Source: an uncultured bacterium
GTDB lineage: Bacteria > Patescibacteriota > Minisyncoccia > Phycocordibacterales > GWA1-40-21
Assembly (NCBI GenBank): GCA_903831305.1
Contig: CAIKXE010000011.1
Location: 12,002-76,001 of the forward strand
DNA: 64,000 nucleotides
Direction: 5' to 3'
Part shown: piece by piece, positions 292-25,884 of the stretch
How positions within the stretch are numbered: the first letter of the stretch is position 1
Layout: every line of letters starts with the position of its first letter
Program-made: the position numbers and the translations under genes
Notes under the pieces: model-generated
Databases searched by the model: none
What the model was told of the DNA's origin: nothing
What the model saw: the letters and a program-made list of their open reading frames with translations, nothing else

Positions 292-1188
292 TTAATCGTT
301 TGTGCTGTAGTGTGCCTTAAGATTCTCTACATGCTGGGATGGAGAGATATCCACGGTTTGGCATAGAAGGGATAGTTTTCCTATGATTAACAGGATACTT
401 TCTTCAGTTAGACGTCCTTGCTCGAACTTTTTGAAATATTGGATTAGATCATCTATCTGGAGTACTCCTTCTATTGGTGGTGTTTTTATTTCACAAGCTT
501 CAGTAAAGACAACGATGCTTTCAAAACTATTTTCGGGGATAGCCGGAAACAGCTCCTTTAGCGCCATTATATGGGACCAGTTTTGTCTGATGGGATTTTG
601 AAATTGAAACTTATTTTCTCCACCCGGCAATGACTGTGTCCAGCTCTCTTGGTCTTTGCTACCAAATATCCAACCTTTATAATCCTTGCTTTCAATTACA
701 AAAATTCCAAATTTTGATATAACAAGGTGGTCTATCTGCGAGGAACCATTATTAGTTGCCGGGATGATCAGATTGTTGAAAATATAGTAGTCTTTATAGT
801 TTAAGCCTTCAGCGAGAATATCAGCCACTTCTTGTTCACCCCAGGATAGACCTTTAGTATAACACCGACTTGTGTGCTTTCTATAATTAATTTCGGCAAT
901 ATCTTCCGTCTTTGGATTAGCGGGTATTGATTCTGTATTATATGCGGCGCTCCATCCCAAAATCTTTCTTATGATTTTGACTATTAGGAAAACAATTACA
1001 AATAAAATACCGAGGGAGAAGATAGCACCAATAAATACTCCAGGTGAAGAGGTAAAAAATCCAATCAACAACAAAGAACCGACAAAGACAAATATGGGTT
1101 TTATCATTGAATCATCTCTTGAATTACGATATGCCGATCGGCGTAAATAATATGAACCTCTTTTTCTGTAGTTGTGAAAGTAACCCAT
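292..1188 (-). CDS. NERD-domain (nuclease-related domain) protein with N-terminal membrane anchor
   Basis: Hydrophobic N-terminal helices (IFVFVGSLLLIGFF, LGILFVIVFLIV). The C-terminal region ...IDHLVISKFGIFVIESKDYKGWIFG... resembles NERD-family proteins (family assignment from memory of the fold). Confidence 0.55.
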   Translation of the reverse strand: MGYFHNYRKRGSYYLRRSAYRNSRDDSMIKPIFVFVGSLLLIGFFTSSPGVFIGAIFSLGILFVIVFLIVKIIRKILGWSAAYNTESIPANPKTEDIAEINYRKHTSRCYTKGLSWGEQEVADILAEGLNYKDYYIFNNLIIPATNNGSSQIDHLVISKFGIFVIESKDYKGWIFGSKDQESWTQSLPGGENKFQFQNPIRQNWSHIMALKELFPAIPENSFESIVVFTEACEIKTPPIEGVLQIDDLIQYFKKFEQGRLTEESILLIIGKLSLLCQTVDISPSQHVENLKAHYSTND

Positions 1189-1189: not shown

Positions 1190-2032
1190 TTAATTACAAT
1201 TTAACGCTTTACGCCAACCGGCATCAGTAGCTTCTTTCTCAGTACAGAACCACCTTTCACCCTTACTTTCATCTATCGTTGTTTTAGCATAGGACCCACA
1301 ACCTATCATATGGTAGATCTTTTCCTTTGTTGAGCCAATATTACCCTTGATGGAGCAGGTACTCGTCCCATTTGTCTGGGTAGCTGCACCGGTAGTGGTG
1401 ACCCCAGCCGTTGAGGTAGCGTTTGGACAAACACTATCTCCCCACAGGCCAGCTTTATTAACCTCAGCCTCTTTTTGCGCTTTCTTGAACTCTGACTGAT
1501 ATTTATAGGGCACATCATAAGTATACTCGTAAGCATAGCCCTCCTTAATCATCAGGAGATTAAAACTGGTCCCATCTTCAAGAAAAACATATCTAAGTAA
1601 CCGGTCGTACTTATCTCTTTCGCCAGAAATTATATCAGCTTCCAAATATACTTTCTGACCACTTAAAAGTTTCTTAGCCTTATCTGAGGCTTCTCGTCCA
1701 AAACACTCTACTGGCTTCCTAGGGTCCACTGTTTCCGGTGTGTTTATTCCTATCAGCCTTACTCTCTCTGTTTTACCATCAAGTGAGACATCAATAGTAT
1801 CGCCGTCCACCACTTTGACTACATCAAGCAACTTCAGATCTGTTGTGAGTGGTTTGACAGAAAGACTTGCTCCAGTACTAGAAGCTATGGACCCTGCTAC
1901 CGTATTTATCTGCTCCTTTTTTGTGTTGGTATCATGACTAGATAGGGAGATAAAAATAATTAATAATACAACTGCTATAATTCCTGTAACATACGCCCTA
2001 TTTTTAAAAATATCTTTTATTTTATTGATCAT
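1190..2032 (-). CDS. secreted/membrane-anchored thermonuclease (staphylococcal nuclease, SNase-like) with Cys-containing C-terminal domain
   Basis: N-terminal TM anchor. SNase motifs [42 protein letters not shown]-terminal ...[14 protein letters not shown]...[19 protein letters not shown]... conserved Cys module. Confidence 0.8.
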
Positions 2033-2152: not shown

Positions 2153-3949
2153 ATGCAAAAATATACAGTTAATCAGTATTTTGTAAGCAATATATTAAAT
2201 TGGGTTCAAGAAAAGGAAATAGCGATCCCCGAGATTCAGCGACCATTCGTTTGGGATTCAGTGAAGGTCCGTGATTTAATGGACTCTTTATATAAAGGTT
2301 TTCCTATCGGATATATTATTGCGTGGAAGAACCCTGATGTTCGCTTGAAAGATGGAACTATATCAGGTGGTAAAAAAGTATTAATTGATGGCCAGCAACG
2401 CATTACGGCACTTAGGGCGGCGGTTCTTGGTCAAAATATAGTAAATACTGATTACAAAGAAGGACGTATTTATATTGCCTTCCACCCAATTACCGAAGAG
2501 TTCGCAACACTTACACCGGCTATCGAAAAGGACAAGGCTTGGATTCCAGATATTTCTAAGTTAATGACTAAAGATGGCGGACTCTTTCAGGATGTTACAA
2601 ATTATTGTGAAAAAAATCCTGAAGTAAGCAGAGATCTTATAGAAAGGAATATAGAAAAATTACTTCAGATTAAGAGTAAGCAAGTTGGATTTATTGAACT
2701 TGATTCAAATTTGGACATTGAGACGGTCACAGAAATATTTATTCGCATTAACTCCAAAGGGGTAGTCTTAAGTCAGGCGGATTTTGCCATGTCCAAGATT
2801 GCCTCATATGACAATGAAGATAATTTTGGAGTGAACTTAAGAAAGTGTATTGATTATTTCTGTCACCTTTCTCGTGAACCGCATTTTTATAAATACATAA
2901 GTGAGAACGACCAGGAGTTCAGTAAGACCCAGTATCTTTCCAAGATAGCCTGGCTTAAAGATGAAAATGATGATCTGTATGATCCTGATTACTCAGACGT
3001 ATTAAGAGTTAGTTTTACAAAACAGTTTGAAAGAGGAAAGATGGCTGACCTGGTAGGATTACTTTCGGGAAGGAATTTTGAAACAAGGAGTTTTGAGCAA
3101 TCAATAATGGACGAGTCGTTTCAGAAGTTAAGCATGGCTCTATTGGACTTCGTAAACGAAACATATTTTAAAGATTTTGTGATGGCTATCAAGTCCTCCG
3201 GTTTTATAAGCAAGGATTTGGTCAATTCACAAAATACCTTAAACTTTGCATATATTTTATATCTCAAGCTTAGAGAAAAAGGCGTAAACAGGGATGAGAT
3301 TAAACGATTAGTTTCAAGGTGGTTCGTGATGTCTTTATTGACCGGCAGATATTCTGGTTCACCAGAGAGTAAGTTTGATTTTGACATCAAACAGATTTCA
3401 AAGGATGGCGCTGATAAGGTGTTAAAAGCAATTGAGGATGCGGAGCTATCTGATGCTTATTGGAATTTTGGCTTGGTCCAGGCGCTCGATAAGGCTACTA
3501 TAAATAGCCCCTTTCTGAACCTGTTCTTTGCTGCTCAAATTAAGGCTAATGACAGAGGCTTCTTGTCCACGGACATAACGGTGGGAAGCATGATTGAGCA
3601 CAGAGGTGATATACATCATCTATTCCCAAGGGATTATTTGAAATCTAAAGGCTTAGAGCGCGGTGAATATAATCAAATTGCAAACTTTGTGTATGCTCAG
3701 TCGGAAATTAATATCAATATTGGAAACAAAACACCGAAGGGCTACATGCTAGATGTCATTGAGCAGACAATGGGCGGCAAATCAAAGTATGGAGGAATTG
3801 ATAATAAAGAGATTCTGATTGAAAATCTAAGACAGAACTGTATCCCTGAAGGTTTTGAGAAAATGGAAGTCGGTGATTATGAAAATTTTCTTAAAGATAG
3901 GCGTAAGTTGATGGCAAAGAAGATAGAGGGGTATTATAAGAGTTTGTAA
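2153..3949 (+). CDS. GmrSD-family DUF262/DUF1524 protein (type IV restriction-like; ParB-like NTPase/nuclease N-domain + HNH/His-Me C-domain)
   Basis: N-terminal DUF262 hallmarks IPEIQRPFVW and LIDGQQRITAL. C-terminal DUF1524-like HHLFPRDYL. Confidence 0.8.
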   Translation: MQKYTVNQYFVSNILNWVQEKEIAIPEIQRPFVWDSVKVRDLMDSLYKGFPIGYIIAWKNPDVRLKDGTISGGKKVLIDGQQRITALRAAVLGQNIVNTDYKEGRIYIAFHPITEEFATLTPAIEKDKAWIPDISKLMTKDGGLFQDVTNYCEKNPEVSRDLIERNIEKLLQIKSKQVGFIELDSNLDIETVTEIFIRINSKGVVLSQADFAMSKIASYDNEDNFGVNLRKCIDYFCHLSREPHFYKYISENDQEFSKTQYLSKIAWLKDENDDLYDPDYSDVLRVSFTKQFERGKMADLVGLLSGRNFETRSFEQSIMDESFQKLSMALLDFVNETYFKDFVMAIKSSGFISKDLVNSQNTLNFAYILYLKLREKGVNRDEIKRLVSRWFVMSLLTGRYSGSPESKFDFDIKQISKDGADKVLKAIEDAELSDAYWNFGLVQALDKATINSPFLNLFFAAQIKANDRGFLSTDITVGSMIEHRGDIHHLFPRDYLKSKGLERGEYNQIANFVYAQSEININIGNKTPKGYMLDVIEQTMGGKSKYGGIDNKEILIENLRQNCIPEGFEKMEVGDYENFLKDRRKLMAKKIEGYYKSL

Positions 3950-3957
3950 TTGTAATT

Positions 3958-6900
3958 ATGTCTAAAGAGCCTAGAAAAACAAATAAATCTAACGATATAA
4001 ATGAAACTTTTTCATACGGTGTAGTTTATGTTTATTCTATTCCGGACGAAAAACATAAGGGGCGTTTAAAAATCGGTAGTGCAACTATAACTTCAGCCAA
4101 GTCAACTCAAGATGACGTCAATTTAGCTGCTGAAGAGCGAATACAGCAACAAACAAAAACGGCTGATATTTCTTATGTACTTGAGCATGCAGAGCTCGCT
4201 ATTACAAATGACAACTGTTTTTTCCGTGATCATGATGTTCATGAAGTTCTCAAGCGATCAGGTTATGAACGTAAAACAGAGAATGTTAAAAATGCACACT
4301 CGGAGTGGTTTGAAGTTAGTTTAGACGTTGCAAAGAAAGCAATTCAAGCTGTAAAAGAAGGGCGAACAGCATTAATGACTGGAGAAAAAATTGCTCCCAA
4401 GACTTCTGAATTTTCTTTTCGTCCAAACCAGCGCGAAGCGATTGATAAAACTATCAGAGCCATTAAGAAAAATCGCAAACATTTTCTTTGGAATGCAAAG
4501 ATGCGTTTCGGTAAAACATCAGCGGCTATGCAAGTGGCTAAAGAGAATGAAATGAAAAGAGTCATTATCGTCACTCATCGCCCTAGCGTAAGTGTTGATT
4601 GGTACGATGACTTCAACAAAGTATTTATTGGCACAAACTATGAATACTCTTCAAAAACAAAAGGCTTAAATATAAGTACCCTCATGAAAGGTGACAAACC
4701 TTTTGTTTATTTTGCATCTTTACAAGATTTACGCTTATCAAAACGGGTAGTAGAGGATGGGTCCGCTGGATCTAAGGCTGCAGGATTTGATAAAAATGAT
4801 GAAGTTTTTGATACAACCTGGGACATGCTAATTATTGATGAAGCCCATGAGGGAACACAAAGTAATCTCGGGGATGCTACTTTTTTAAAGATACCAACAA
4901 ACTTTACGCTACAGCTTTCCGGCACACCTTTTAATATTCTACATAAGCACGAAGAAGAAGATATATACACCTGGGACTATGTAATGGAACAGGAAGCAAA
5001 GCTCAATTGGGACGAGCGCAATCCCGGAGTACCAAACCCTTATGCTGAACTACCAGCTCTGAGTATTTTTACTTACGACATAGATACATTTGCTAGCCAT
5101 ATTGGTAAATTAGGCGAAGGTTTTCATGATTCCTTAGACGGTGCTTTTAAATTCCATGAGTTTTTCCGTGTACAAAAAGATAATGAGGGTAATGATACTG
5201 CTGAGTTTGTCCATGAGCCGATGGTTAAGAAGTTCTTAGATTTATTGGCTGATGATAAGTTAAAGACAAAATTCCCATACGCGACAGAAGAATACCGTAA
5301 CTATAACAAGCATTCCCTCTGGTTATTACCGAATCGTGTCAAAGTTATTGAAGCAATGGAGAAATTGCTTAAGGACCACCAGATTTTTGGTTCTAATCAA
5401 TTTGGCGTTGTAAATATTTCTGGAGATAGTCGTGATGATGAAGAAGATAAAGACGCCAAGGATCGCGTTACCAAGGCAATTAAAAATTATGACTATACAA
5501 TAACACTAACAGGTCAACGTCTCACAACTGGGGCATCTGTTCCTGAATGGACAGCAATCTTTATGATGTCTGACACAAACTCTGCCACTACCTACTTACA
5601 GACAGCTTTTAGATGTCAAACTCCAGCAAGAATAGATGGTAAGCTAAAAACACAAGGATATGTATTTGATTTTGCTCCAGATCGTACTTTGAAACTGGTC
5701 GCTGAGGCGATAGAGCTTAACCACAAATCAGGAAAGACTAATTCACCAGAACAGAAAGAAGCGATGAGACAATTTCTTAACTTCTGCCCAATTTTAGCCG
5801 CGGAGGGTGGAACAATGAAGCTATATGATGTGGGGAAAATGCTCGTTCAATTGAAAAAAGCCATTATTGAAAGGGTTAGCCGTAATGGTTTTGATGATCC
5901 TAAATTATACAACGATGAGTTGTTACGACTTGATGAGCTAGATGTAGCTAAGTTTAATGCGCTCAAAGCTATTGTTGGTAAATCTACTAGTGAAAGAATA
6001 AACGAAATTGAGATTAACAGTCTTGGTATGACTGATCTCCAAGCAAAGAAAGCAGAAGAAGCTGAACGTAAGAATAAACAAAAGAAAGAGCTATCAGAAG
6101 AAGAAAAGGAAAATTTGAAAAAATTAAAGGAAGCCCGTGAGCAGAAGCAGACGGCTATTAGTATATTACGCGCTGTGAGTATACGTATGCCGATGTTGGT
6201 ATATGGAGCAAATGTATCAATCCACGATGATATAACTTTGCAAAAGTTTATTGAGCTTGTTGATGAAGAGTCTTGGCAAGAGTTTATGCCGGTGGGACTA
6301 ACAAAAGAAAAGTTTAAGGAATTTACTAAATATTATGATGAGGAAGTATTTAAGGGGGTTGCTCACAGTATTCGGGCCAAAGCTTTTGATTGTGATGACC
6401 TCTTACCGACAGATAGAATACGCACAATTTCTGAAATATTCAGCACTTTTAAGAATCCAGACAAGGAAACCGTCCTAACACCTTGGAATGTGGTGAATAT
6501 GCATCTAACCAAAGCTTTTGGTGGCCATGATTTTTGTAGTGAGGTTATAGATAAAAAAGGAAAACCAGAATGGAAGAGTTATAATGTTGATACTAGTGTA
6601 TGGTCCCAGGACGACACAAAGATCCTTGAAATAAATTCAAAGTCTGGTTTGTATCCCTTGTTAGCATGTTATAATGTATATTCGAGACAGCTTAAGAATA
6701 GTAAAGAGAGAAATAAACTAGAAGAGAAGATATTTAGACAAGTATGGAATAAGGTTTTGGCGGATAATATTTTCGTGCTTTGTAAGAGTCCAATGGCTGT
6801 GAGTATCACAAGACGAACGCTTGCCGGATATAGCGGTGCTAGGACGAATATTATTTATATTAAGGACCTGGTTAATAAACTCCAACAGAAAGGTGGTTTT

Positions 6901-7974
6901 AAGGATTATAATTTAAAGAATGAATTATTAGAAAAGTTTAATTTAAAAGATAAAGATATGAAATTCACAGCCGCCGTAGGAAATCCCCCATATCAAATAC
7001 AAACTAAAGATACGAGTGATAATCCTGTCTACCATCTTTTTATGGATGAGTCTTACAAATTAGCAGATAAGGTTGCATTGATTCATCCAGCTCGTTTTTT
7101 ATTTAATGCCGGAAAGACTCCAAAAGAATGGAATAAAAAGATATTAAATGATAAGCATACTAAAGTCATTTTTTATGAACAGCAGTCGTCCAAGGTTTTC
7201 CCGAACACAGATATTAAAGGAGGGATTGCAATAACCTACCATGATATTAGTAAGGATTTTGGTAAAATTGGTTCATTTACTAGTCATCCTGAACTTAAAA
7301 CGATACAGGAGAAAGTCGAGAACCACGACAATTTTGCACCGCTGAGCGGAATGATATACCTACAGAACAAATTTAATCTTGATGCGTTATATAAAGATAA
7401 TCCATCGTTTAAAAAAATAATTGGAAGTAGTGGCAGAGAGAAACGTTTAACTTCTCCAATATTTGAACAACTTAATGTTTTTGTGGATAATCCAAAGCAC
7501 GATACAGATGTTAGAATTTTTGGTTTGATAAAAAATAATCGAACCTATAAATGGATAGGCAAAAACTATTTAGAAAAACATCCGAACTTAGAGAAGTATA
7601 AAGTCTTAGTTGCTAAGGCTAATGGAAGCGGGGCTCTTGGTGAGGTGCTCTCATCTCCTATTATCTGTGAACCTTTTACAGGTTTTACATTTAGTTTTAT
7701 CTCATTTGGCGCCTTTAATGATGAAGATGAAGCTCAAGCGGTTCTAAAATATATCAAAACAAAGTTTGCGCGAACTATGTTGGGAGTATTAAAAATTACA
7801 CAGGATAATCTTCCTAGGACTTGGTCAAAAGTTCCTCTTCAGAATTTCACTAATAAATCTGATATTGATTGGTCGAAATCTATTCCTGAGATAGATAAAC
7901 AACTGTATGCGAAATATGGTCTTGATAAAAAAGAAATAGACTTCATCGAGACACATGTGAAGCCTATGGTTTAA
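3958..7974 (+). CDS. fused T5orf172 (GIY-YIG-superfamily) domain - SF2/SNF2-like DEAH helicase - gamma-class N6-adenine DNA methyltransferase (Type ISP/IIG-like restriction-modification enzyme) with C-terminal putative target-recognition region
   Basis: N-terminus GVVYVYSIPD...GRLKIGSAT...HEVLKRSGYERK...EWFEV (T5orf172 pattern). Helicase motif I FGKTSAA, motif II LIIDEAHEG, motif III LSGTPF and Q/R motif TGQRLTTGAS. MTase motif X-like VLTPWNVVNM, motif I-like ILEINSKSGLYPLLA and motif IV AVGNPPYQ. About 330 aa follow NPPY. Confidence 0.8.
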   Translation: MSKEPRKTNKSNDINETFSYGVVYVYSIPDEKHKGRLKIGSATITSAKSTQDDVNLAAEERIQQQTKTADISYVLEHAELAITNDNCFFRDHDVHEVLKRSGYERKTENVKNAHSEWFEVSLDVAKKAIQAVKEGRTALMTGEKIAPKTSEFSFRPNQREAIDKTIRAIKKNRKHFLWNAKMRFGKTSAAMQVAKENEMKRVIIVTHRPSVSVDWYDDFNKVFIGTNYEYSSKTKGLNISTLMKGDKPFVYFASLQDLRLSKRVVEDGSAGSKAAGFDKNDEVFDTTWDMLIIDEAHEGTQSNLGDATFLKIPTNFTLQLSGTPFNILHKHEEEDIYTWDYVMEQEAKLNWDERNPGVPNPYAELPALSIFTYDIDTFASHIGKLGEGFHDSLDGAFKFHEFFRVQKDNEGNDTAEFVHEPMVKKFLDLLADDKLKTKFPYATEEYRNYNKHSLWLLPNRVKVIEAMEKLLKDHQIFGSNQFGVVNISGDSRDDEEDKDAKDRVTKAIKNYDYTITLTGQRLTTGASVPEWTAIFMMSDTNSATTYLQTAFRCQTPARIDGKLKTQGYVFDFAPDRTLKLVAEAIELNHKSGKTNSPEQKEAMRQFLNFCPILAAEGGTMKLYDVGKMLVQLKKAIIERVSRNGFDDPKLYNDELLRLDELDVAKFNALKAIVGKSTSERINEIEINSLGMTDLQAKKAEEAERKNKQKKELSEEEKENLKKLKEAREQKQTAISILRAVSIRMPMLVYGANVSIHDDITLQKFIELVDEESWQEFMPVGLTKEKFKEFTKYYDEEVFKGVAHSIRAKAFDCDDLLPTDRIRTISEIFSTFKNPDKETVLTPWNVVNMHLTKAFGGHDFCSEVIDKKGKPEWKSYNVDTSVWSQDDTKILEINSKSGLYPLLACYNVYSRQLKNSKERNKLEEKIFRQVWNKVLADNIFVLCKSPMAVSITRRTLAGYSGARTNIIYIKDLVNKLQQKGGFKDYNLKNELLEKFNLKDKDMKFTAAVGNPPYQIQTKDTSDNPVYHLFMDESYKLADKVALIHPARFLFNAGKTPKEWNKKILNDKHTKVIFYEQQSSKVFPNTDIKGGIAITYHDISKDFGKIGSFTSHPELKTIQEKVENHDNFAPLSGMIYLQNKFNLDALYKDNPSFKKIIGSSGREKRLTSPIFEQLNVFVDNPKHDTDVRIFGLIKNNRTYKWIGKNYLEKHPNLEKYKVLVAKANGSGALGEVLSSPIICEPFTGFTFSFISFGAFNDEDEAQAVLKYIKTKFARTMLGVLKITQDNLPRTWSKVPLQNFTNKSDIDWSKSIPEIDKQLYAKYGLDKKEIDFIETHVKPMV

Positions 7975-7977
7975 ATT

Positions 7978-8910
7978 ATGAAAGTCTCGACGCGTAATAT
8001 TGATATACTCGAAAACACGCTTCGTCGTACCGGTGATTTGCTGGATATTCTTCTATTGGACCGCACCACAAAAAAGAATATCATCTGGGCAACAGATTCA
8101 TATGAAAAACATGGCAGAGATTTTTTAGCTAAAACGAGAATCATGCCAGAATTGGTAACTGGTAAGTGTGGCTTGCTCATACAACCACGCGCTGCTAAAA
8201 GTTTGGATGAACAACGTCTACGCACTAAAGACAAGGCTGAGGTTTTTACACCATTAAAGATTGTAGATCAGATGAATAAAATGATTGAGACTGCTGACCA
8301 CAGTAGTCTGCCTAGTAAAAGTAATTGGCAAGAATACGTTCGTGAATTGAAGATTGAGATTACCTGCGGTGAGGCCCCCTTTATTGTTAGTCGCTATAAT
8401 CCAATTGCAAATACTCGCAAAATTATTAAATTAGATAGTCGCGTTGGTTTTTTAGATAGAAAATTGAAAATAGTATCTAAATATTGTCCTACGAAAAAAG
8501 AGTGGTTGTTTTGGGCAAAAGAAGCTTTTAGGGCAAGTTATGGCTATGAATGGCAGGGGGATAATGTGCTGCTTGCGCGTGAGAACTTGTTGTACACGCT
8601 TATTGACTATTACAAAGCTAAATTTAAAGAGAAACCATCTCTCAAGATACAAGAAGAATTTGCGGAAATTATAAGTTGGAATATATTCCAAATGGACGGC
8701 CTGCGGTACGTTATTCCTATGAGTTGCCATCATGAGAGCAGGGTTATTCCTAGTGTAGCTACGCTTTTTGGTGAAATACCAGGTAAGGTTGAGAAGAATG
8801 AATGTGAAGGCTGTAAGTATAATCGTCCAAATAAACACAACGGAAGACATGTCCAAATTATGGATTGGAGTAAGAATAAGGTAGTAAGGTTCGTGGATTT
8901 AATTAAATAA
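7978..8910 (+). CDS. MTase-like protein carrying HsdM/Eco57I-type motif X and motif I but no NPPY catalytic motif; C-terminal Cys/His cluster (putative Zn site)
   Basis: AEVFTPLKIVDQMNKMI matches the G-E-F-F-T-P-x-x-V motif X of gamma-class N6A MTases. EITCGEAPFIV resembles motif I. No (N/D/S)PP(Y/F) anywhere. C-terminal cluster CHHESR...NECEGCKYNRPNKHNGRH. Confidence 0.45.
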   Translation: MKVSTRNIDILENTLRRTGDLLDILLLDRTTKKNIIWATDSYEKHGRDFLAKTRIMPELVTGKCGLLIQPRAAKSLDEQRLRTKDKAEVFTPLKIVDQMNKMIETADHSSLPSKSNWQEYVRELKIEITCGEAPFIVSRYNPIANTRKIIKLDSRVGFLDRKLKIVSKYCPTKKEWLFWAKEAFRASYGYEWQGDNVLLARENLLYTLIDYYKAKFKEKPSLKIQEEFAEIISWNIFQMDGLRYVIPMSCHHESRVIPSVATLFGEIPGKVEKNECEGCKYNRPNKHNGRHVQIMDWSKNKVVRFVDLIK

Positions 8911-8992
8911 GACTAAAATTAGGGGCGTAATATATAAAGTATCCAGTAGTAGGTAGTTACGGCGGTTTAATGGAAAAAATAAGGAAACAAAT

Positions 8993-11900
8993 ATGAAGAC
9001 ATTTTTTTACAAAAATATTATTTTAAAAATAAAGAGCTTTTTTCAAAAGAAAGAAAGGTCCTTATTAGACATAGCAAATAGAGAAAAAAAGAATAATAAA
9101 GAACTAAAACGTATTGTTAAAAATAAACTTCCACCGCTATGGATGCCATCCGTTTCGTCCTTTCTAAGAATATTTTTTGTAATGATGTTTTTTTGGATAA
9201 TTTCACATCCAAAATATTTAGTAGAGTTAATACTTTCACCGTTACATAGTTTGTTTTTACACACACCATTTCTTAAAACGGTAGTTCCTTACATTATAAA
9301 AATGTTTAGCTTATTACCACATTCAATACCTATTATTAGCGAAGGTGGTAATTTATTAGCAGTTCACGCGGGTGTAGGATCTGTTTTGATTGGGTTAGCC
9401 TTTTTTGTTGCACAAAGTTTAACAGACAAGAGCGATTCTGAAAAATCTAGGGTGCTATTGTATAAAAGTTATTTTTTCCCCTTACTGGTAGCTGAGGTAA
9501 TGGCTTTCTTTTTCTTTATTGGAAAGACCAACGTCTTGGTATATATACCGATTGCAGGAATTGCTTTTTGGACTTTGTATTCTTTGGGTAAGGTAATAGA
9601 TATTCTTGTTAAAGAGTATAAAATGGAAGAAGCGAAAAAGAGAGTTCTTTTAAACGTAACAAAAGAGAATTTTATTAGAATATTAGATAGAGAAACAACA
9701 TATAGAATTGGTAATAATTTTATTTATAAAAAATATGAGAGTAGCGGGATTTTAGATGTCAATCCTTTTGGATTTTCCAGAGATAAAAAGACGGTGGTCA
9801 GAATAAAATCACAAAAAAGTGGTGCAATCGTGGATATTAAAATGAACGAGCTTGAGAGATTAATACTACTATTGAGTCAGGCGGTAAAAGTAGATTTTCC
9901 TATAGGAAATGCTGAGACAACTAACGATAATGGGGTCAAAGTTAAAAGTGAATCACTATGTTGTTTATTAACATTACTAGGTCATAAAATAGAATTAGAG
10001 CAGCCATTATTCGAGATCAAAAAAGAAATCGCTGATAAGATTGGTGTGAAAAGATTAGAAAAAATAATCGAGAGAGTGTTTTTAATAAAAGATGACATCT
10101 CAGAAGTTGAGGCACGTACCGAAGTTTTAAAATTAAAGGATAGGTGTATCCTAGCAATAAACAATCAACAAACAGGAGAATTAGAGAAGATAATAAAATT
10201 GTATGTCGAACTTGTTAATGAATTTTCTAAATATTTTAATTTGTATCATGGCGGATGTTTTTCGTCAGAACAAGCAAGACAGGAAAGAAACTCATTTTTT
10301 GAAAGACTTAAGCCTCTAGACTGGATATCAAAAGATATTAGAGAAATTTTTGATAGAGGGATAAATTCTGAAGATCTAAATATTATCAGAGATGTTGCCT
10401 ACTTGCCCATAATGCTGGTGCAACAAGCTATTGAAAGTAAAGACCATCTTATTTTTCAGGAATTCATACCTTATTCTTTGGTTCTGTACGAAAAAGCCTT
10501 TGATTTCTCAAAAAAAGATAGAGAAAAGGAATCAGAGATAATGTTTGATCGGACTTGGCGATATTTGAAGGAACTATCCGCATATTATCTCGAATCAAAA
10601 TTAAAGGAAGAAGATTACCCTGAGGGTGACTTTAAAGACTATTACATCCAGATACTTAAAATTTTACAGGCACTATTAAAGTCATCATTTGATAAGAAGG
10701 ATTTGACTAATTTTAATAAGTTCTTAAAAGTTACCTCAGATTTATTTAACAGATTAGATAGACCGTACTCAAATTCTTCTTATACTAATACTGAAAAAGT
10801 CTTTAATCTTCTAGACGGTAAACGTCAGGAAATGTTCTTTGGGGTTTCTAGTTGGATTTTATTTATCTTAAAGAACAATAAAGATCTCCAGGTCAGAGAA
10901 TTTTATAATGCAGTACAAAATGAATTACCTTCAGATATCATCGAATTCACAAGGGTGTTTTTACAATCTCATAGTTTTGATACCGAAGATCATTGGGGTT
11001 GGGATTGGTGGGAATCCAGGCCGGATGAGGGCGTACATACGATAAATGTACTTGAAAAACTTGAGCAATTCTTTGTGGTTAGACTATTGATATTATTAGG
11101 ATCAAAAAGTGACCAAGAAATTGAAAAAATTAGTTTACCTCATAATAGGGATTTAGCTTTTCTTGCCGAAGGAACAAGAGACGCAATCAAGATTATAGAT
11201 GATATTGAAAAAAACCCTGGTAATTGGACTTTTATTTTAGATAGCGAATCTGTAAAAAGATGTCTAGCATTACGTAATCTACTTAAAAAAGCACATGATC
11301 AGCAGGAACAAGATGATTTAAGGTGTAAACGTGAAGCTGATATTTCAAGAGATAAAGTTGAAAAATTTAAGAAGTATTTTATTGAAAATTATAAACAGAG
11401 TCATCCAATCAAAGAGATGTTAAAAGACTTTGGTCTTCTTTCAAATAAAACCAATAAAAAAGTTGGAAAAGAGATAAAAAAACTGGGAATTAATACTTTG
11501 TTTGATAAAGGTGCTTTTTTGGGTGATGAGGTCAATTGGTACATTCATTATACGGGAATTAAAGAAGCTTTTGGTTTTGGTAGGAGTATGGTTTATGGTG
11601 AGAATGAATATGTTCTTGGAAAAATCAGAGGTAAAGCTAAAGAAATAACAGAAGATAGGTTTGAAAATACTTTGGCGGGGATCCAATTATCTAACATCGT
11701 CCTTATTGCTACAAACCATGCTGTATGGAAGTTCTTTGAGAGATCAAATAGTAATTGGATACCTAAGTGGCATAGCGAATTTCCTAAAGAGCTCTTCGGT
11801 AATCAAATAATTGAAGGTGTCTACAGATTTAAAGATAAAATCATTCCGGTCTATCAGCTATTTACTTCAGGTTCTAGTAGTTCAGATATCTTTATTTTAG

Positions 11901-12190
11901 ATAAAACTAAAATTGGGAAATTGGTACAATTTTCTCCACTTGAGGATGGTGATAGTACAGATGTATTGTTCGATGTTTTCCTTATAGATGTTCAGGAATT
12001 TATTTTAAACTCTACCTTAATTACCGAATTTATTGATAAGCCTCCACAGTGGCTGTCGGATATTGGTAATAAAGAGAAACAGATTGAACATCTGCAAGAG
12101 TGTGTTTTGATTCATGTCTTTGAAAAAATTCAATTTAAACTTCACAATGAATTTAGTGGGTATATATTACTAACAGATAAGATAAAATAA
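8993..12190 (+). CDS. large (1065 aa) hypothetical protein, N-terminal multi-pass membrane region plus ~850-aa predicted cytoplasmic alpha-rich domain; no recognisable catalytic motif
   Basis: Hydrophobic segments LRIFFVMMFFWIISHP, VLIGLAFFVAQSL, VAEVMAFFFFIG and IPIAGIAFWTLYSLG in the first ~200 aa. The remainder is K/E-rich with no Walker A, HxK or PD-(D/E)xK motif seen. Confidence 0.6.
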   Translation: MKTFFYKNIILKIKSFFQKKERSLLDIANREKKNNKELKRIVKNKLPPLWMPSVSSFLRIFFVMMFFWIISHPKYLVELILSPLHSLFLHTPFLKTVVPYIIKMFSLLPHSIPIISEGGNLLAVHAGVGSVLIGLAFFVAQSLTDKSDSEKSRVLLYKSYFFPLLVAEVMAFFFFIGKTNVLVYIPIAGIAFWTLYSLGKVIDILVKEYKMEEAKKRVLLNVTKENFIRILDRETTYRIGNNFIYKKYESSGILDVNPFGFSRDKKTVVRIKSQKSGAIVDIKMNELERLILLLSQAVKVDFPIGNAETTNDNGVKVKSESLCCLLTLLGHKIELEQPLFEIKKEIADKIGVKRLEKIIERVFLIKDDISEVEARTEVLKLKDRCILAINNQQTGELEKIIKLYVELVNEFSKYFNLYHGGCFSSEQARQERNSFFERLKPLDWISKDIREIFDRGINSEDLNIIRDVAYLPIMLVQQAIESKDHLIFQEFIPYSLVLYEKAFDFSKKDREKESEIMFDRTWRYLKELSAYYLESKLKEEDYPEGDFKDYYIQILKILQALLKSSFDKKDLTNFNKFLKVTSDLFNRLDRPYSNSSYTNTEKVFNLLDGKRQEMFFGVSSWILFILKNNKDLQVREFYNAVQNELPSDIIEFTRVFLQSHSFDTEDHWGWDWWESRPDEGVHTINVLEKLEQFFVVRLLILLGSKSDQEIEKISLPHNRDLAFLAEGTRDAIKIIDDIEKNPGNWTFILDSESVKRCLALRNLLKKAHDQQEQDDLRCKREADISRDKVEKFKKYFIENYKQSHPIKEMLKDFGLLSNKTNKKVGKEIKKLGINTLFDKGAFLGDEVNWYIHYTGIKEAFGFGRSMVYGENEYVLGKIRGKAKEITEDRFENTLAGIQLSNIVLIATNHAVWKFFERSNSNWIPKWHSEFPKELFGNQIIEGVYRFKDKIIPVYQLFTSGSSSSDIFILDKTKIGKLVQFSPLEDGDSTDVLFDVFLIDVQEFILNSTLITEFIDKPPQWLSDIGNKEKQIEHLQECVLIHVFEKIQFKLHNEFSGYILLTDKIK

Positions 12191-12193
12191 TTT

Positions 12194-13696
12194 ATGAAGC
12201 CCATATCCAAATCTCTATTCCTTCAATACTTAATCTGTCCTAAAGACGCGTGGTTTAGGCTGCACCAGCCGGACCTGGAGGAATTTAATGTCTCCTTTTC
12301 GGACCAAAATGTGATGGCCCAGGGTAATGTGGTGGAGGATTGTGCTAAGAAACTTAAGATATTCTCCGGTTTTGTGGAAGTCAAAAGCCGGGCTTTCTCG
12401 GCCAGCAAGGAGATAGACAAGCTGATTGCTGAAGAAGTACCAGCAATCTATCAGCCAACCTTCAGCGTTGATGGTTTTATAATCCGCTGTGACTTTCTGG
12501 TTTGGAATGCCAAAACCAAGAAATGGGACTTATACGAGGTTAAAGGTACAAATTCCAAGAAGGATGACGATGGACCGCGGGACCATATCTCTGATCTAGC
12601 TTTCCAAACAATTGTGCTGGAGCGATACGGTCTTAGCATCGGTAGTAAATATATTGTTCATTTGAACAAAGAATACGTTAGGGGTAAGGAGCTGGATGTT
12701 GAAGAACTCTTTGTTATTAATGATAGCACCGAGCAGGTAGAACTAAAGAAAGCTACTACCGATGCGCAGATGGAGAAAGCTAAGGCGTATTTGAATCAAG
12801 AGGATGAGCCTAAAGACGGCTGTAACTGTCATTTATTAGGTAGAAGTAATCATTGTGAGACATTTAAGAAATCACACCCCGAGATACCGGATTATTCCGT
12901 CCATGATATATCCAGGATAGGTTCAACGCCTGATAAGCTGATTCAACTGGTCAAGAACGGTATCTATCATCTCCACGAAGCGGAAGACATATCTGATTTT
13001 ACCATTCCCCAACAAAACCAGATTCAGGCCCATAAGACAAAGAAAGAGATAATTGTCAGAGAAGAAATTGCTAATATTCTGGACAATTATACCTATCCGC
13101 TGTACTTCTTTGATTATGAGACCTTTGCACCTGCCGTGCCTATCTATGAAGGATTTAGCTCATATCAGCGTATACCAATCCAATTTTCCTTGCATATTAT
13201 TGAAAAGATGGCCGGACCTGTCCGTCATCTGGACTATCTTCACCTAGAGAATACTGACCCTTCAGAAACTGTTGCTAAGATGCTAGGCGAGGTCATAGAT
13301 CCTAAAGGAACAGTCCTGGCCTGGAATGTCTCTTTTGAGAAAGGCGTTACATCGGAGATAGCGGAAAGACTGCCTAAGTATGAGCCGGTGATAACGAGGA
13401 TTTGTGGCCAGATGAGAGACCTTCGGGATATTTTTTCCCAGCAGCATTATGTCCATAAGGATTTTAAAGGGAAAACCTCAATTGAAGCTGTTATGAACGT
13501 GTTATTGCCAGATATGACTTATGATCATTTACCATATACTGGTAGTGATGTGGGTTTTGTCTGGTGGAATGATATAGTCAATCAAGGTAAGGAACCTTCT
13601 GAAAGGGAGGAGAAGATACATCTAATCCGGGAATACTGTAAACAAGATACTTTTGTAATGGTGGAGATTTTTAGAATATTGAATAGTATTATATAA
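12194..13696 (+). CDS. two-domain nuclease: Cas4/RecB-like PD-(D/E)xK domain with Fe-S Cys cluster + DnaQ-like DEDDy 3'-5' exonuclease domain (DUF2779-like architecture)
   Basis: The Cys arrangement C15...CNCHLLGRSNHC (C-x-C-x8-C) matches Cas4/AddB Fe-S clusters. PD-(D/E)xK-like ...DGFIIRCDFLVW...WDLYEVKG. Exo I YFFDYETFAP, Exo II-like AWNVSFEKG and Exo III YCKQDTF. Confidence 0.65.
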   Translation: MKPISKSLFLQYLICPKDAWFRLHQPDLEEFNVSFSDQNVMAQGNVVEDCAKKLKIFSGFVEVKSRAFSASKEIDKLIAEEVPAIYQPTFSVDGFIIRCDFLVWNAKTKKWDLYEVKGTNSKKDDDGPRDHISDLAFQTIVLERYGLSIGSKYIVHLNKEYVRGKELDVEELFVINDSTEQVELKKATTDAQMEKAKAYLNQEDEPKDGCNCHLLGRSNHCETFKKSHPEIPDYSVHDISRIGSTPDKLIQLVKNGIYHLHEAEDISDFTIPQQNQIQAHKTKKEIIVREEIANILDNYTYPLYFFDYETFAPAVPIYEGFSSYQRIPIQFSLHIIEKMAGPVRHLDYLHLENTDPSETVAKMLGEVIDPKGTVLAWNVSFEKGVTSEIAERLPKYEPVITRICGQMRDLRDIFSQQHYVHKDFKGKTSIEAVMNVLLPDMTYDHLPYTGSDVGFVWWNDIVNQGKEPSEREEKIHLIREYCKQDTFVMVEIFRILNSII

Positions 13697-13727: not shown

Positions 13728-14444
13728 ATGAAAAATAAAAGATATATAATCATAGTGCTTACAGTCCTTTTGTTGCTTATTTTGGGTGCGTATCAATTAT
13801 TTATTCTTAATCAAGAAAAACAACTAGATGTAGTCAATAAAAACACTGTTCGTGTTTGGGATGCAGAAACCGCATCATTCGTAGAATACGCTTCTTATGA
13901 AGAAATGGAGCAAGAATGGGAGAATGAAAGAAAAAGAGAAGTTGAGGAATATGATAAAACCACTAGGGGGACAATTGTGGAGCAAATTCAAAATATAAAT
14001 ATCCCATCAGATGTTGATGAAAGTGAGGTAGCCCAATTACAACAAGGAGAGGTAGAGGTTCGTAGCGAAAAATCGGAGGATTTTCCAGACGGGATTTTCT
14101 CGTGGGGAGCTTACTTAGTTGAAAATATAAAATCTTTCACTATTGGTGATTTTAATAACGACGGACTAGATGATGTTGCCCATATCATTGCATACACAGG
14201 TGGCGGTAGTGGAATGTTTTACAATCTCGTTATCTTTATGAATAATCAAGGCAAATTAAAGTATTTAACTCAAGAAGGGTTGGGTGACAGAGTTATCATC
14301 CAGAGTGTAAAATATGAATCTGGAGAGTTTATTGTTGATATAATTACTCAAGGTGAAGGGGATAATTTTAAAGGGTATTGTTGTCCAAACGTACCAAAGA
14401 CTGTTAAATTTAAGCTAGAAAATAGTAAATTAGTAGAATTTTAA
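13728..14444 (+). CDS. hypothetical membrane-anchored/secreted protein
   Basis: N-terminal anchor IIIVLTVLLLLILGAY and an acidic linker. No known motif. Confidence 0.5.
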   Translation: MKNKRYIIIVLTVLLLLILGAYQLFILNQEKQLDVVNKNTVRVWDAETASFVEYASYEEMEQEWENERKREVEEYDKTTRGTIVEQIQNINIPSDVDESEVAQLQQGEVEVRSEKSEDFPDGIFSWGAYLVENIKSFTIGDFNNDGLDDVAHIIAYTGGGSGMFYNLVIFMNNQGKLKYLTQEGLGDRVIIQSVKYESGEFIVDIITQGEGDNFKGYCCPNVPKTVKFKLENSKLVEF

Positions 14445-22723: not shown

Positions 22724-22741
22724 TATGATATCATCCAATAT

Positions 22742-24263: not shown

Positions 24264-24269
24264 AATATC

Positions 24270-25727: not shown

Positions 25728-25884
25728 ATATTAGCTAATATATAATTGTGGGCTGGTCAGCTTTTTTAAAGAGTAAAATTTAGTGTTTAACTTAAGGACG
25801 CATACTTGTGCGTGTGTGTTGAATAAATATGCATTGTATGTTATATTATAAACTATTAAGTTTAATAGTTTAAATTAGTAAATT

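What the first reader, a model, noticed from the sequence alone, without database searches (positions are those of the whole stretch)
2153..13696. Five-gene restriction-like operon: GmrSD-like + T5orf172-helicase-MTase fusion + catalytically incomplete MTase-like + 1065-aa membrane protein + Cas4/DEDD nuclease (candidate undescribed defense module)
Seen in sequence: five + strand genes are packed with 3-83-nt gaps (3949/3958, 7974/7978, 8910/8993, 12190/12194). That spacing indicates one transcription unit. The first two genes look like known immunity components: a DGQQR/HNH GmrSD-type enzyme and a Type ISP-like helicase-MTase single-chain enzyme. The last three genes do not fit any described system I can name. 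They are a 310-aa protein keeping the SAM-MTase motifs X and I but lacking motif IV, a 1065-aa protein with an N-terminal membrane domain and no catalytic motif, and a fused Cas4-like Fe-S PD-(D/E)xK + DnaQ-like exonuclease. The combination of helicase, MTase, degenerate MTase, large membrane protein and dual nuclease in one operon, facing a NERD + SNase nuclease pair, is a plausible new composite anti-phage system. One scenario is an R-M core with an abortive-infection-type membrane effector and a DNA-end-processing nuclease. This is inference and the biochemical roles are unknown.
Basis: partly seen in the sequence, partly recalled or inferred. Interest (0 to 1): 0.85.

Follow-up and report, generated by a model that had tools for sequence, protein, structure and literature searches.

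The report
Mosaic defence island, not one system
The five tightly packed genes are separate anti-phage modules sitting side by side: a common but uncharacterised two-gene restriction enzyme with a split methyltransferase, and a very rare membrane protein that rides behind restriction operons and is predicted to end in a phage-capsid-like fold.

Summary
They are not one five-gene system.

- **Core pair.** Only the helicase-methyltransferase (3958-7974, "HelMT") and the 310-aa protein (7978-8910, "p310") travel together. HelMT lies upstream of p310 in 55 of 58 related loci.
- **p310.** It is the detached N-terminal, SAM-binding-type half of an Eco57I-like methyltransferase. Single-chain relatives equal p310 plus HelMT residues 995-1338.
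- **GmrSD and DUF2779.** GmrSD is a facultative neighbour. DUF2779 (Cas4-like plus exonuclease) is a conserved chromosomal neighbour with variable restriction cargo upstream.

Tight spacing is the norm here (median gap 9 nt), so it does not show a functional unit. All functions are inferred; nothing was tested experimentally.

The parts
292..1188 (-). NERD-domain protein (298 aa), left flank. Not shown to belong to any module.
   Evidence: Pfam NERD E=9e-32. Only weak partial matches to the PglW and MAD6 N-terminal regions.
1190..2032 (-). Staphylococcal-nuclease homologue with a C-terminal 'sunset' domain (280 aa), left flank. Probably a resident gene of this lineage.
   Evidence: Pfam SNase E=3e-25, NCBIfam sunset domain, PADLOC SNc+LTD E=9e-50. 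A 55%-identical homologue lies 2 kb from DUF2779 in L095.
2153..3949 (+). GmrSD/BrxU-like Type IV (modification-dependent) restriction enzyme, 598 aa. The DUF262 domain with DGQQR spans aa 17-215. An HNH-like motif 'DIHHLFP..N..N' lies near the C-terminus.
   Evidence: Pfam GmrSD_N E=7.5e-32. PADLOC HEC-05 E=1.4e-26. Motifs read. DGQQR-bearing genes lie within 1.5 kb of the HelMT-p310 pair in 8 of 80 loci and directly after the pair on E. faecium plasmids.
3958..7974 (+). HelMT, a 1338-aa Type ISP-like single-chain enzyme. T5orf172 (GIY-YIG-clan) nuclease domain: aa 24-132, nt 4027-4353. SF2 helicase-like motor: aa ~150-655, with GKT, DEAH and SGTP motifs. Linker and motif X/I-like region: aa ~737-1000. 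Catalytic MTase half starting at GNPPY: aa 1008-1012, nt 6979-6993. Variable target-recognition region: aa ~1100-1290. Conserved C-terminal tail: aa 1293-1338.
   Evidence: Pfam T5orf172, ResIII and Eco57I. PADLOC REase_MTase_IIG E=5e-50. Motif conservation across 51 full-length homologues, with aa 1100-1290 unconserved.
7978..8910 (+). p310, the detached N-terminal half of an Eco57I-like gamma-class N6-adenine MTase and obligate partner of HelMT. Motif X 'EVFTP': aa 88-92, nt 8239-8253. Motif I 'EITCGEAPF': aa 127-135, nt 8356-8382. Motif II-like 'YGYEWQGDNVLLARENL': aa 188-204. Cys/His-rich beta insertion: aa ~243-296. Motif III-like 'RFVDLI': aa 303-308. There is no motif IV.
   Evidence: PADLOC MTase_II PDLC03390 E=7e-92. 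More than 7580 homologues at 55-91% identity across phyla. HelMT lies upstream in 55 of 58 loci. Single-chain relatives equal p310 plus HelMT 995-1338.
8993..12190 (+). p1065, an independent single-gene passenger of restriction operons. Conserved 4-5 TM helices: aa ~49-199, nt 9137-9589. Small alpha/beta domain: aa ~250-366. Alpha-solenoid: aa ~370-800. Predicted HK97/encapsulin-like domain: aa ~810-1065, nt ~11420-12187.
12194..13696 (+). DUF2779 protein (500 aa): Cas4-like PD-(D/E)xK domain with a Cys cluster at the N-terminus, plus a DnaQ-like 3'-5' exonuclease (DUF2779, aa 304-429). Conserved chromosomal neighbour at the right edge of the island.
   Evidence: Pfam DUF2779 E=1.4e-35, weak Cas4 hits. 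Literature: PMC3985635 and PMC13621843. Synteny with p238 (L158, 92% identity) and with SppA (L092). Variable restriction cargo upstream in relatives.

Best explanation
The region is a mosaic defence island made of independently inherited modules that are co-oriented in a gene-dense genome.

(1) 2153-3949 is a GmrSD/BrxU-like Type IV enzyme that targets modified DNA. It is a facultative neighbour.

(2) 3958-8910 is one two-gene restriction-modification enzyme.
- HelMT carries a T5orf172/GIY-YIG-type nuclease, an SF2 translocase, the catalytic half of an Eco57I-like adenine methyltransferase (motifs IV-VIII), a variable target-recognition region and a conserved C-terminal tail.
- p310 is the matching N-terminal half (motifs X, I, II, III, the SAM-binding-type part), made as a separate polypeptide.
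- Inferred mechanism: p310 docks on the C-terminal methyltransferase module of HelMT. The complex methylates host sites. On unmethylated DNA it translocates using ATP and cuts with the T5orf172 domain, as Type ISP enzymes do.

(3) 8993-12190 (p1065) is a separate single-gene element that lodges at the 3' end of restriction operons of many types.
- Its conserved polar transmembrane bundle is the likely effector.
- Its solenoid and capsid-like C-terminal domain are the likely sensor or decoy.
- Most likely it is a late-acting back-up defence that responds to, or interferes with, phage head assembly when restriction fails.

(4) 12194-13696 (DUF2779) is a resident dual nuclease that flanks a variable restriction-cargo site. 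It is not a specific component.

What is shown: the linkage patterns, motif content, fusion proteins and predicted fold. What is inferred: complex formation, methylation and cleavage, a defence role for p1065 and any link to capsids.
For: Modularity:
- tblastn of the window proteins against 80 genome loci that carry a p310 homologue finds p1065 in 0 of 80, DUF2779 in 5 of 80 and GmrSD in 3 of 80.
- Clustering of all ORFs in those loci finds only HelMT and p310 conserved, in 68 and 80 loci. No other family is in more than 10 loci.
- HelMT lies upstream on the same strand in 55 of 58 loci with at least 4.5 kb of upstream DNA, and within 60 nt in 39.
- Among 80 DUF2779 loci, one has a HelMT-like gene and none has p310 or p1065.

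Split methyltransferase:
- An exhaustive HMM search gives 1974 representatives.
- Among the best 150, 100 are short and 92 of those lack (N/D)PP(Y/F/W). 35 are longer than 600 aa, and 32 of those carry NPPY about 170-220 aa after motif I.
- The long relatives have Pfam Eco57I directly after the p310-like part.
- P0191 (711 aa) equals p310 (41% identity, residues 22-355) plus HelMT 995-1338 (49% identity, residues 362-711). P0258 and P0246 fuse the p310 N-part to HelMT segments.
- GKT, DEAH, SGTP, KSG and GNPPY are invariant in 51 HelMT homologues, and aa 1100-1290 are variable.
- On E. faecium conjugative plasmids the order is HTH, p310-like, HelMT-like, DUF262.

p1065:
- In 9 of 13 contexts it lies at most 83 nt after, or overlaps, the last gene of a restriction or Type IV operon. 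These are Type I (P0003, P0004, P0016, P0019, P0028), AlwI (P0005), Type III (P0011), EcoRI-methylase plus GmrSD_N-HNH (P0009) and this window.
- Others lie in defence or mobile islands or alone.
- The transmembrane region is among the best conserved parts and has invariant polar residues.
- A distant 1021-aa Pseudanabaena plasmid homologue has the same TM, helical and C-terminal layout.

Compositional mosaic: p1065 GC 31.3%, DUF2779 41.5%, window 37.8%.
Against: - No experiment of any kind supports these roles.
- HelMT has its own motif X/I/III-like strings upstream of NPPY ('VLTP', 'ILEINSKSG', 'YIKDLV'). Its methyltransferase may therefore be complete without p310.
- p310 is far more conserved than HelMT (78% against 25-31% identity in L010, L012 and L013). 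That is odd for a co-evolving interface.
- The p310 structure model is poor (pLDDT 59.8) and matched nothing.
- The capsid-like fold of p1065 rests on one AF2 model built from 33 sequences. There is no sequence-level support, and Foldseek E-values are 0.02 or worse.
- Four of 13 p1065 contexts lack an adjacent restriction system.
- The GC deviation of p1065 is only about 2 SD and is not the window minimum.
- DUF2779 follows varied restriction cargo with 0-4 nt gaps in several relatives, so it could itself be an accessory gene.
Confidence: 0.72

Rival explanations
1. One reading: the five genes, or at least the last three, form one composite anti-phage system. It would have a restriction-modification core, a degenerate MTase regulator, a membrane abortive-infection effector and an end-processing nuclease.
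For: The genes are co-oriented with 3-82 nt gaps and no predicted terminator between them. All have defence-like domains or contexts.
Against: p1065 is in 0 of 80 p310 loci and 0 of 80 DUF2779 loci. DUF2779 is in 5 of 80 p310 loci. p1065 sits behind at least five unrelated kinds of restriction system. Tight spacing is the genome-wide norm. GC content differs by 10 points between p1065 and DUF2779.
Confidence: 0.04
2. p310 is not a catalytic half. It would be a non-catalytic pseudo-methyltransferase partner of a HelMT whose own methyltransferase domain is complete. In this view it acts as an adaptor, a SAM sensor or an allosteric activator, analogous in logic to METTL14 or DNMT3L (analogy recalled from general knowledge).
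For: HelMT has contiguous motif X/I/III/IV-like strings with normal spacing. Pfam Eco57I covers aa 937-1081 at profile positions 2-171. P0258 contains both the p310 N-part and the HelMT 626-1337 region in one chain, so the two are not redundant. p310 is much more conserved than the HelMT C-half. The best-conserved HelMT segment is its C-terminal tail, which could be the docking site.
Against: In the 630-717 aa single-chain relatives the p310-like part is the only segment N-terminal to NPPY, and p310-type motifs X and I lie within it. HelMT motif I is atypical ('SKSG'), and the motif II acidic residue is not evident. hhalign finds only a 19-column motif X match between p310 and HelMT 700-1338.
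Confidence: 0.35
3. p1065 is not a defence protein and its capsid-like domain is a prediction artefact or a convergent fold. It would be a membrane protein of mobile elements with another role, such as exclusion, maintenance or transport, that merely accumulates in the same genomic sinks as restriction systems.
For: No sequence-level similarity to capsid or encapsulin families. Foldseek E-values are weak. Two contexts lie among housekeeping genes. Serine recombinases or relaxases are nearby in several loci. No PADLOC hit.
Confidence: 0.3
4. DUF2779 is itself a restriction-associated accessory nuclease, for example one that processes cleaved foreign DNA ends, and not a resident flank gene.
For: In relatives at 49-71% identity it directly follows varied restriction or Type IV cargo, often with 0-4 nt gaps: L094 (Type III-like), L095 (Dcm plus NOV_C), L098 (T5orf172-helicase plus GmrSD) and L023 (HelMT-p310). 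Its Cas4-like plus exonuclease architecture suits end processing.
Against: Downstream synteny with p238 and SppA is kept while the upstream cargo changes. Relatives at 46% identity sit after dnaG-rpoD. The family is quasi-essential in minimal Mycoplasma (PMC13621843). Most of the 80 loci show no linked window-type defence gene.
Confidence: 0.25

Closest known systems
Type ISP restriction-modification enzymes (LlaGI, LlaBIII)
   Same: One polypeptide with the order nuclease, SF2 helicase-like motor, gamma-class adenine MTase, target-recognition domain. Helicase and NPPY motifs are conserved and the C-terminal recognition region is variable. The Type ISP literature anticipated relatives that use GIY-YIG nucleases (PMC3553950).
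   Different: The nuclease is T5orf172/GIY-YIG-clan, not Mrr-type PD-(D/E)xK. A second, highly conserved polypeptide (p310) is almost always encoded alongside. Type ISP enzymes act alone. Cleavage mechanism and methylation pattern are untested.
DnmA(YeeA)-YeeB-YeeC clusters (MmeI-like MTase, SF2 helicase, T5orf172 protein)
   Same: The same three activities are combined in one locus. The cluster is described as conserved and as protective in Vibrio (PMC9973331).
   Different: There the three activities are separate genes with a complete MTase. Here nuclease, helicase and the catalytic MTase half are fused, and the N-terminal MTase half is split off.
GmrSD/BrxU (PADLOC HEC-05) Type IV enzymes embedded in or next to methylation-based systems
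   Same: DUF262 with DGQQR plus an HNH-like C-terminus. Adjacent to a methylating system, as reported for BrxU in BREX, Hma and Type I loci.
   Different: No Pfam GmrSD_C hit. Association with HelMT-p310 is facultative: 8 of 80 loci plus the E. faecium plasmids.
PrrC-type back-up defences embedded in restriction operons ('guilt by embedding')
   Same: p1065 is co-oriented with, and immediately next to or overlapping, genes of restriction operons of several types. This is the pattern used to predict new defences.
   Different: There is no ABC-ATPase or anticodon-nuclease domain and no match to any HEC or PDC model. It sits at the 3' end and not between system genes. A link to inactivation of restriction is pure conjecture.
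Encapsulin shell proteins and HK97-fold major capsid proteins
   Different: No sequence similarity. The domain is fused behind ~800 aa of transmembrane and solenoid sequence. There is no cargo or phage genes nearby, and the family is absent from viral collections. Shell formation is unknown.
Two-polypeptide DNA methyltransferases (for example M.AquI alpha/beta; recalled from memory, not checked here)
   Same: The conserved MTase motifs are distributed over two polypeptides encoded side by side.
   Different: Those are C5-cytosine enzymes without helicase or nuclease fusions. Here the gene order (IV-VIII and recognition region, then X-I-III) mimics a beta-class permutation.

Membership tests
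Type ISP restriction-modification enzyme | Single chain with the order nuclease, SF2 ATPase, gamma-class N6A MTase, target-recognition domain | tested here: met
   Pfam T5orf172 24-132, ResIII 152-325, Eco57I 937-1081. Variable aa 1100-1290.
Type ISP restriction-modification enzyme | N-terminal Mrr-family PD-(D/E)xK nuclease | tested here: not met
   The N-terminal domain is T5orf172/MUG113 (GIY-YIG clan). No Mrr_cat hit.
Type ISP restriction-modification enzyme | Acts as a single polypeptide without accessory subunits | tested here: not met
   A p310 gene accompanies HelMT in 55 of 58 loci, and fusion proteins exist. Physical interaction was not tested.
Type ISP restriction-modification enzyme | ATP-driven translocation with collision-dependent cleavage; methylation of one strand of an asymmetric site | not testable with these tools
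   Needs biochemistry or a methylome.
DnmA-YeeB-YeeC type cluster | Complete MmeI-like MTase, helicase and T5orf172 protein encoded as three separate genes | tested here: not met
   The domains are present but fused in one ORF, and the MTase is split differently.
Gamma-class N6-adenine DNA methyltransferase (for p310) | Motifs X and I (SAM binding) | tested here: met
   'EVFTP' and 'EITCGEAPF' are invariant in 35 homologues. This is a motif-level result only.
Gamma-class N6-adenine DNA methyltransferase (for p310) | Catalytic motif IV (N/D)PP(Y/F/W) | tested here: not met
   Absent in p310 and in 92 of 100 short relatives. Present in 32 of 35 long relatives, downstream of the p310-like part.
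Gamma-class N6-adenine DNA methyltransferase (for p310) | Rossmann-type methyltransferase fold | tested here: inconclusive
   AF2 pLDDT 59.8. Foldseek against PDB gives no hit at E<=0.001. No Pfam or PDB sequence hit.
GmrSD/BrxU Type IV restriction enzyme | DUF262 domain with the DGQQR motif | tested here: met
   GmrSD_N E=7.5e-32. 'IDGQQRITAL' is present.
GmrSD/BrxU Type IV restriction enzyme | DUF1524 His-Me/HNH nuclease domain | tested here: inconclusive
   No GmrSD_C Pfam hit at E<=0.01. A 'DIHHLFP...N...N' motif is seen by eye.
Encapsulin / HK97-fold capsid protein (for the p1065 C-terminus) | HK97 fold | tested here: met
Encapsulin / HK97-fold capsid protein (for the p1065 C-terminus) | Sequence membership in a capsid or encapsulin family | tested here: not met
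   No Pfam hit at E<=10 and no capsid or encapsulin family among the PHROGs hits at E<=1. The PDB profile search gave one unrelated hit.
Encapsulin / HK97-fold capsid protein (for the p1065 C-terminus) | Viral or cargo-gene context; self-assembly into shells | tested here: not met
   No phage or cargo genes adjacent in 13 contexts. No relatives in IMG/VR or INPHARED. Assembly is not testable here.
Known or candidate defence systems in PADLOC-DB v2 (for p1065) | Match to any system or candidate HMM | tested here: not met
   0 families at E<=0.01.
DUF2779 (PF11074) Cas4-like plus exonuclease family | PF11074 domain preceded by a Cas4/RecB-like nuclease region | tested here: met
   DUF2779 E=1.4e-35, above the cut-off. 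Cas4 models at E 1.7e-6 to 5e-3, below the TIGR00372 cut-off. The architecture matches PMC3985635 and PMC13621843.

The most novel reading that the evidence does not exclude
p1065 founds a new class of cellular HK97-fold protein. It would be a membrane-anchored capsid-protein mimic that is neither a virus capsid nor an encapsulin. It rides at the 3' end of restriction-modification operons as a late-acting second line of defence. It would either co-assemble with and poison phage procapsids, or use the capsid-like domain as bait for head-assembly factors and trigger its conserved transmembrane bundle. Separately, HelMT plus p310 would be a widespread helicase-nuclease restriction enzyme whose methyltransferase is assembled from two polypeptides.
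Probability: 0.3. Interest if true: 0.9.

Novelty: new variant of a known kind. Interest (0 to 1): 0.64.

Why it matters
- **HelMT-p310.** This pair is abundant: more than 7,500 protein clusters, 319 confirmed matches among GTDB species-representative genomes, strong representation in Patescibacteria and Bacteroidota, and presence on Enterococcus faecium conjugative plasmids. I found no description of it as a two-subunit enzyme in the papers searched. Pipelines label p310 'restriction endonuclease' or 'subunit M'. Showing a split methyltransferase coupled to a translocating GIY-YIG-type nuclease would add a new architecture to restriction-modification classification and would correct that annotation.
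- **p1065.** If it is a defence protein with a true HK97 fold, it would extend that fold beyond capsids and encapsulins. It would also give a directly testable example of a host using a capsid-like module against phages, and a clean case of a back-up defence hitch-hiking on restriction operons of many types.
- **Method.** The case shows that tight gene packing in compact genomes should not be read as a functional operon.

Tried and rejected
- **p310 structure and library searches.** PDB sequence and profile searches gave nothing. Pfam at E<=10 gave nothing. PHROGs gave only a 28-residue motif X match at E=0.27. The AF2 model was poor and Foldseek against PDB was uninformative.
- **p310 as a paralogue of the HelMT N-half.** hhalign of p310 against HelMT 700-1338 aligned only 19 columns around motif X. 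A clear paralogue relationship could not be shown.
- **p1065 sequence searches.** The profile search added no members. The PDB profile search gave only a spurious thymidine kinase hit at E=0.18. Pfam at E<=10 gave nothing, and PHROGs gave only two weak unknown-function matches (E 0.035 and 0.054) for the C-terminal segment. No relatives were found in IMG/VR or in phage genomes.
- **Unavailable library.** The AlphaFold-database fold library could not be searched.
- **Signals and repeats.** Promoter and terminator scans were not above shuffled controls. The repeat search found no att-like or cassette repeats flanking p1065.
- **Small downstream membrane gene.** The ~166-aa membrane gene that follows p1065 in three related loci is absent from the window.
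- **Ideas rejected.** p1065 as phage-derived cargo was rejected because no phage genes are adjacent. The five genes as one operon-encoded machine was rejected on the linkage data.

Full report
**1. Observation**

The ORF table reproduces the five + strand genes at the stated coordinates: 2153-3949, 3958-7974, 7978-8910, 8993-12190 and 12194-13696. NERD (292-1188) and SNase (1190-2032) genes lie on the - strand upstream. The library scans give the following.
- First gene: GmrSD_N.
- 1338-aa protein ("HelMT"): T5orf172, ResIII and Eco57I.
- 500-aa protein: DUF2779 plus weak Cas4 hits.
- 310-aa protein ("p310"): nothing in Pfam or NCBIfam, but PADLOC's REBASE-derived model MTase_II PDLC03390 at E=7e-92.
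- 1065-aa protein ("p1065"): nothing in Pfam, NCBIfam or PADLOC.

The inference drawn from spacing is weak. Across the window the median same-strand gap is 9 nt, 76% of pairs outside the island are at most 83 nt apart, and 92% of the sequence is coding. Promoter and terminator scans do not exceed shuffled controls. Genes from 16 kb onward are housekeeping, for example Ddl and ProRS.

**2. Which genes travel together**

I fetched 80 genome loci that carry a p310 homologue. These are mostly Patescibacteria, Bacteroidota and gammaproteobacterial MAGs. I then searched them with all the window proteins.
- A HelMT homologue lies upstream on the same strand in 55 of 58 loci with enough upstream DNA, and within 60 nt in 39.
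- p1065 is in 0 of 80 loci, DUF2779 in 5 of 80 and GmrSD in 3 of 80.
- Clustering all ORFs of these loci finds no third family in more than 10 loci.
- Where HelMT and p310 are separated, the inserts are RhuM-, YhcG/DUF1016- and Bro-like genes. This assignment is by eye from representative sequences and was not run against Pfam. It is the kind of cargo known to embed in Type I loci.

The reverse test used 80 metagenomic loci that carry a DUF2779 homologue. One has a T5orf172-helicase nearby, and none has p310 or p1065.

**3. The HelMT-p310 pair**

Across 51 full-length HelMT homologues, GKT, DEAH, SGTP, 'KSG' and GNPPY are invariant. Residues ~1100-1290 are unconserved, as expected for a target-recognition region. 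The last ~45 residues are conserved. HelMT therefore looks like a Type ISP-style enzyme with a T5orf172/GIY-YIG-clan nuclease in place of the Mrr-type nuclease. The Type ISP literature anticipated such variants (PMC3553950). The variant is related in content to the DnmA-YeeB-YeeC clusters (PMC9973331).

p310 belongs to a very large family, with more than 7580 hits. It is 55-91% identical across phyla, and sources name it 'restriction endonuclease (subunit M)'. An exhaustive HMM search found 1974 representatives at 50% identity. Among the best 150:
- 100 are short, and 92 of those lack (N/D)PP(Y/F/W);
- 35 are longer than 600 aa, and 32 of those have NPPY about 170-220 residues after the p310-type motif I.

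The long relatives carry Pfam Eco57I directly after the p310-like part. BLASTP makes the relationship explicit.
- P0191 (711 aa) equals p310 (41% identity, residues 22-355) followed by HelMT 995-1338 (49% identity, residues 362-711).
- P0258 equals p310(4-223) plus HelMT(626-1337).
- P0246 equals p310(20-249) plus HelMT(26-860).

p310 ends with 'RFVDLI'. This aligns with the motif III-like 'FKDML' that lies 15-25 residues before NPPY in the single-chain enzymes. p310 is therefore the N-terminal, SAM-binding-type half (motifs X, I, II, III, with a helical and Cys/His-rich insertion) of an Eco57I-like methyltransferase. The cognate catalytic half is fused to the helicase. On E. faecium conjugative plasmids the same pair occurs in the order HTH, p310-like, HelMT-like, DUF262.

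Several points remain unresolved.
- HelMT has its own motif X/I/III-like strings.
- hhalign aligns p310 to HelMT only around motif X.
- p310 is much better conserved than HelMT (78% against 25-31% identity in L010).
- The p310 AF2 model is poor.

I therefore hold 'catalytic half supplied in trans' and 'non-catalytic adaptor or sensor' as two live versions of the same conclusion. In both versions p310 is a subunit of the restriction enzyme.

**4. The 1065-aa protein**

The family is rare. There are 33 clusters among 5.8 billion, all about 1050 aa, and the profile search adds none. Thirteen contexts were read.
- Type I: directly after HsdR-YgjP (P0003, P0004), after HsdR (P0028), after HsdM-S (P0016, overlapping) and after HsdS (P0019).
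- Type IIS: directly after the AlwI endonuclease (P0005).
- Type III: directly after Res (P0011).
- After EcoRI-methylase plus GmrSD_N-HNH (P0009), and after p310 in this window.
- In defence or mobile islands (P0022, P0030).
- Alone (P0010, P0031).

Nine of 13 contexts are thus immediately 3' of a restriction or Type IV gene on the same strand, and the systems are of unrelated types. That argues against a specific protein partner. It argues for a self-contained passenger that exploits restriction operons, in the 'guilt by embedding' sense of Payne et al. (bioRxiv 10.1101/2024.01.29.577857). No PADLOC candidate model matches it.

p1065 GC content is 31.3%, against 41.5% for the next gene and 37.8% for the window.

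The AF2 model is confident (pLDDT 84). It shows the following.
- Hydrophobic helices at ~49-199. These are among the best conserved segments and contain invariant polar residues.
- A small alpha/beta domain.
- A long alpha-solenoid.
- A C-terminal alpha/beta domain.

A 1021-aa protein on a Pseudanabaena plasmid shares the C-terminal ~360 residues (E=2e-15) and the overall layout of 4 TM helices, a helical region and the C-terminal domain. The superfamily is therefore wider than the word-indexed search suggested.

The placement of the HK97-like part at aa ~810-1065 is my inference from the secondary-structure order. The tools do not report aligned ranges.

**5. GmrSD and DUF2779**

The GmrSD gene matches BrxU-like HEC-05. 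DGQQR-bearing genes lie within 1.5 kb of the HelMT-p310 pair in 8 of 80 loci, and one follows the pair on the Enterococcus plasmids. This is a recurrent but optional companion, as reported for other methylation-based systems.

DUF2779 is a Cas4-like plus DnaQ-like exonuclease fusion. In relatives at 49-71% identity the upstream cargo changes: DpnII RM, Type III-like, Dcm plus NOV_C, GmrSD-HNH, T5orf172-helicase plus GmrSD, and helicase/GmrSD_N/FRG. Downstream synteny with p238 and SppA is kept. I read it as a resident gene that borders a variable cargo site. An accessory role is not excluded.

**6. Mechanism (inferred)**

- The restriction pair recognises an asymmetric site through the variable C-terminal region. 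It methylates with NPPY supplied by HelMT, with p310 contributing or controlling SAM binding. On unmodified DNA it translocates and cuts with the T5orf172 domain.
- GmrSD covers phages with modified DNA.
- p1065 is expressed from the same transcript. It most plausibly acts late, with its capsid-like domain and solenoid engaging head-assembly proteins and its transmembrane bundle acting as effector.

Only the architecture and the linkage are shown. Every functional step is inference.

**7. Verdict**

The single-system interpretation is not supported. The locus is a mosaic island.
- The HelMT-p310 enzyme is a new variant of a known kind: Type ISP-like, with a GIY-YIG-clan nuclease and a split methyltransferase.
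- p1065 is the truly unusual element, and it is the reason the finding keeps a fairly high interest score.

The window's own proteins are already in public collections. p310, p1065 and GmrSD are labelled 'hypothetical protein'. [quoted passage not shown]

Noticed in passing
L010, L012, L013 (p310 at 10001-10921; HelMT at ~6000-9950): p310 is 76-78% identical to the window copy while the adjacent HelMT is only 24-31% identical. The small subunit is far more conserved than its partner. That is unexpected for a co-evolving interface.
   Followed up: partly
L059:9434-9568, L087:5428-5568, L080:10934-11047, L071:483-605: Extra stand-alone copies of the conserved HelMT C-terminal tail (aa ~1293-1337, 49-71% identity). 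In L059 and L087 they lie next to the RhuM-, YhcG- and Bro-like genes inserted between HelMT and p310. They may be scars of cassette insertion or alternative recognition-domain cassettes.
   Followed up: no
L089:13191-13700, L090:7012-7512 (and the P0005 locus): In the closest p1065 relatives (65-70% identity) a ~166-aa multi-pass membrane protein follows p1065 directly (86% identical between the two loci). It is absent from the window.
   Followed up: partly
L174:5874-8939 (Pseudanabaena galeata plasmid pPg_05): A distant 1021-aa homologue of p1065 with the same layout (4 TM helices, a helical region and a homologous C-terminal ~360 aa). It lies downstream of a PIN_12 protein and an 802-aa protein with no Pfam hit, near a relaxase.
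   Followed up: partly
L175:7609-15090 (Enterococcus faecium conjugative plasmid pK195-6b-A and 7 similar plasmids): HTH regulator, p310-like gene (annotated 'restriction endonuclease'), 1412-aa helicase-Eco57I protein, DUF262 protein and a 269-aa gene. The same restriction pair occurs in the opposite gene order on E. faecium plasmids from cattle faeces, human faeces, human urine and pet food.
   Followed up: partly
L007:13221-13952: In the P0028 locus an RNase_T/ExoX-like DEDD exonuclease directly follows p1065. This echoes the exonuclease-containing DUF2779 gene that follows p1065 in the window. It is a single case.
   Followed up: no
window 1190-2032; L095:11506-12303; L172:7653-8714: SNase homologues recur near DUF2779 (L095, 55% identity) and near a p1065 homologue (L172). 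The window copy carries a C-terminal 'sunset' domain. It is probably a resident secreted nuclease of these small-genome bacteria and not a defence partner.
   Followed up: no
window ~22600-25800: The lowest-GC 3.2-kb stretch of the window (30.2%) lies here, over the GrpB, HD, methyltransferase and AMP-binding genes. It is not in the defence island.
   Followed up: no
window 13728-14444 (p238): A 238-aa protein with a weak XAC2610-related domain. Its C-terminal ~100 aa resemble part of a Gmad2-domain protein in L006 and genes 6 kb from DUF2779 in L105-L107. L158 keeps the DUF2779-p238 adjacency, and there its p238 is 92% identical to the window copy.
   Followed up: partly
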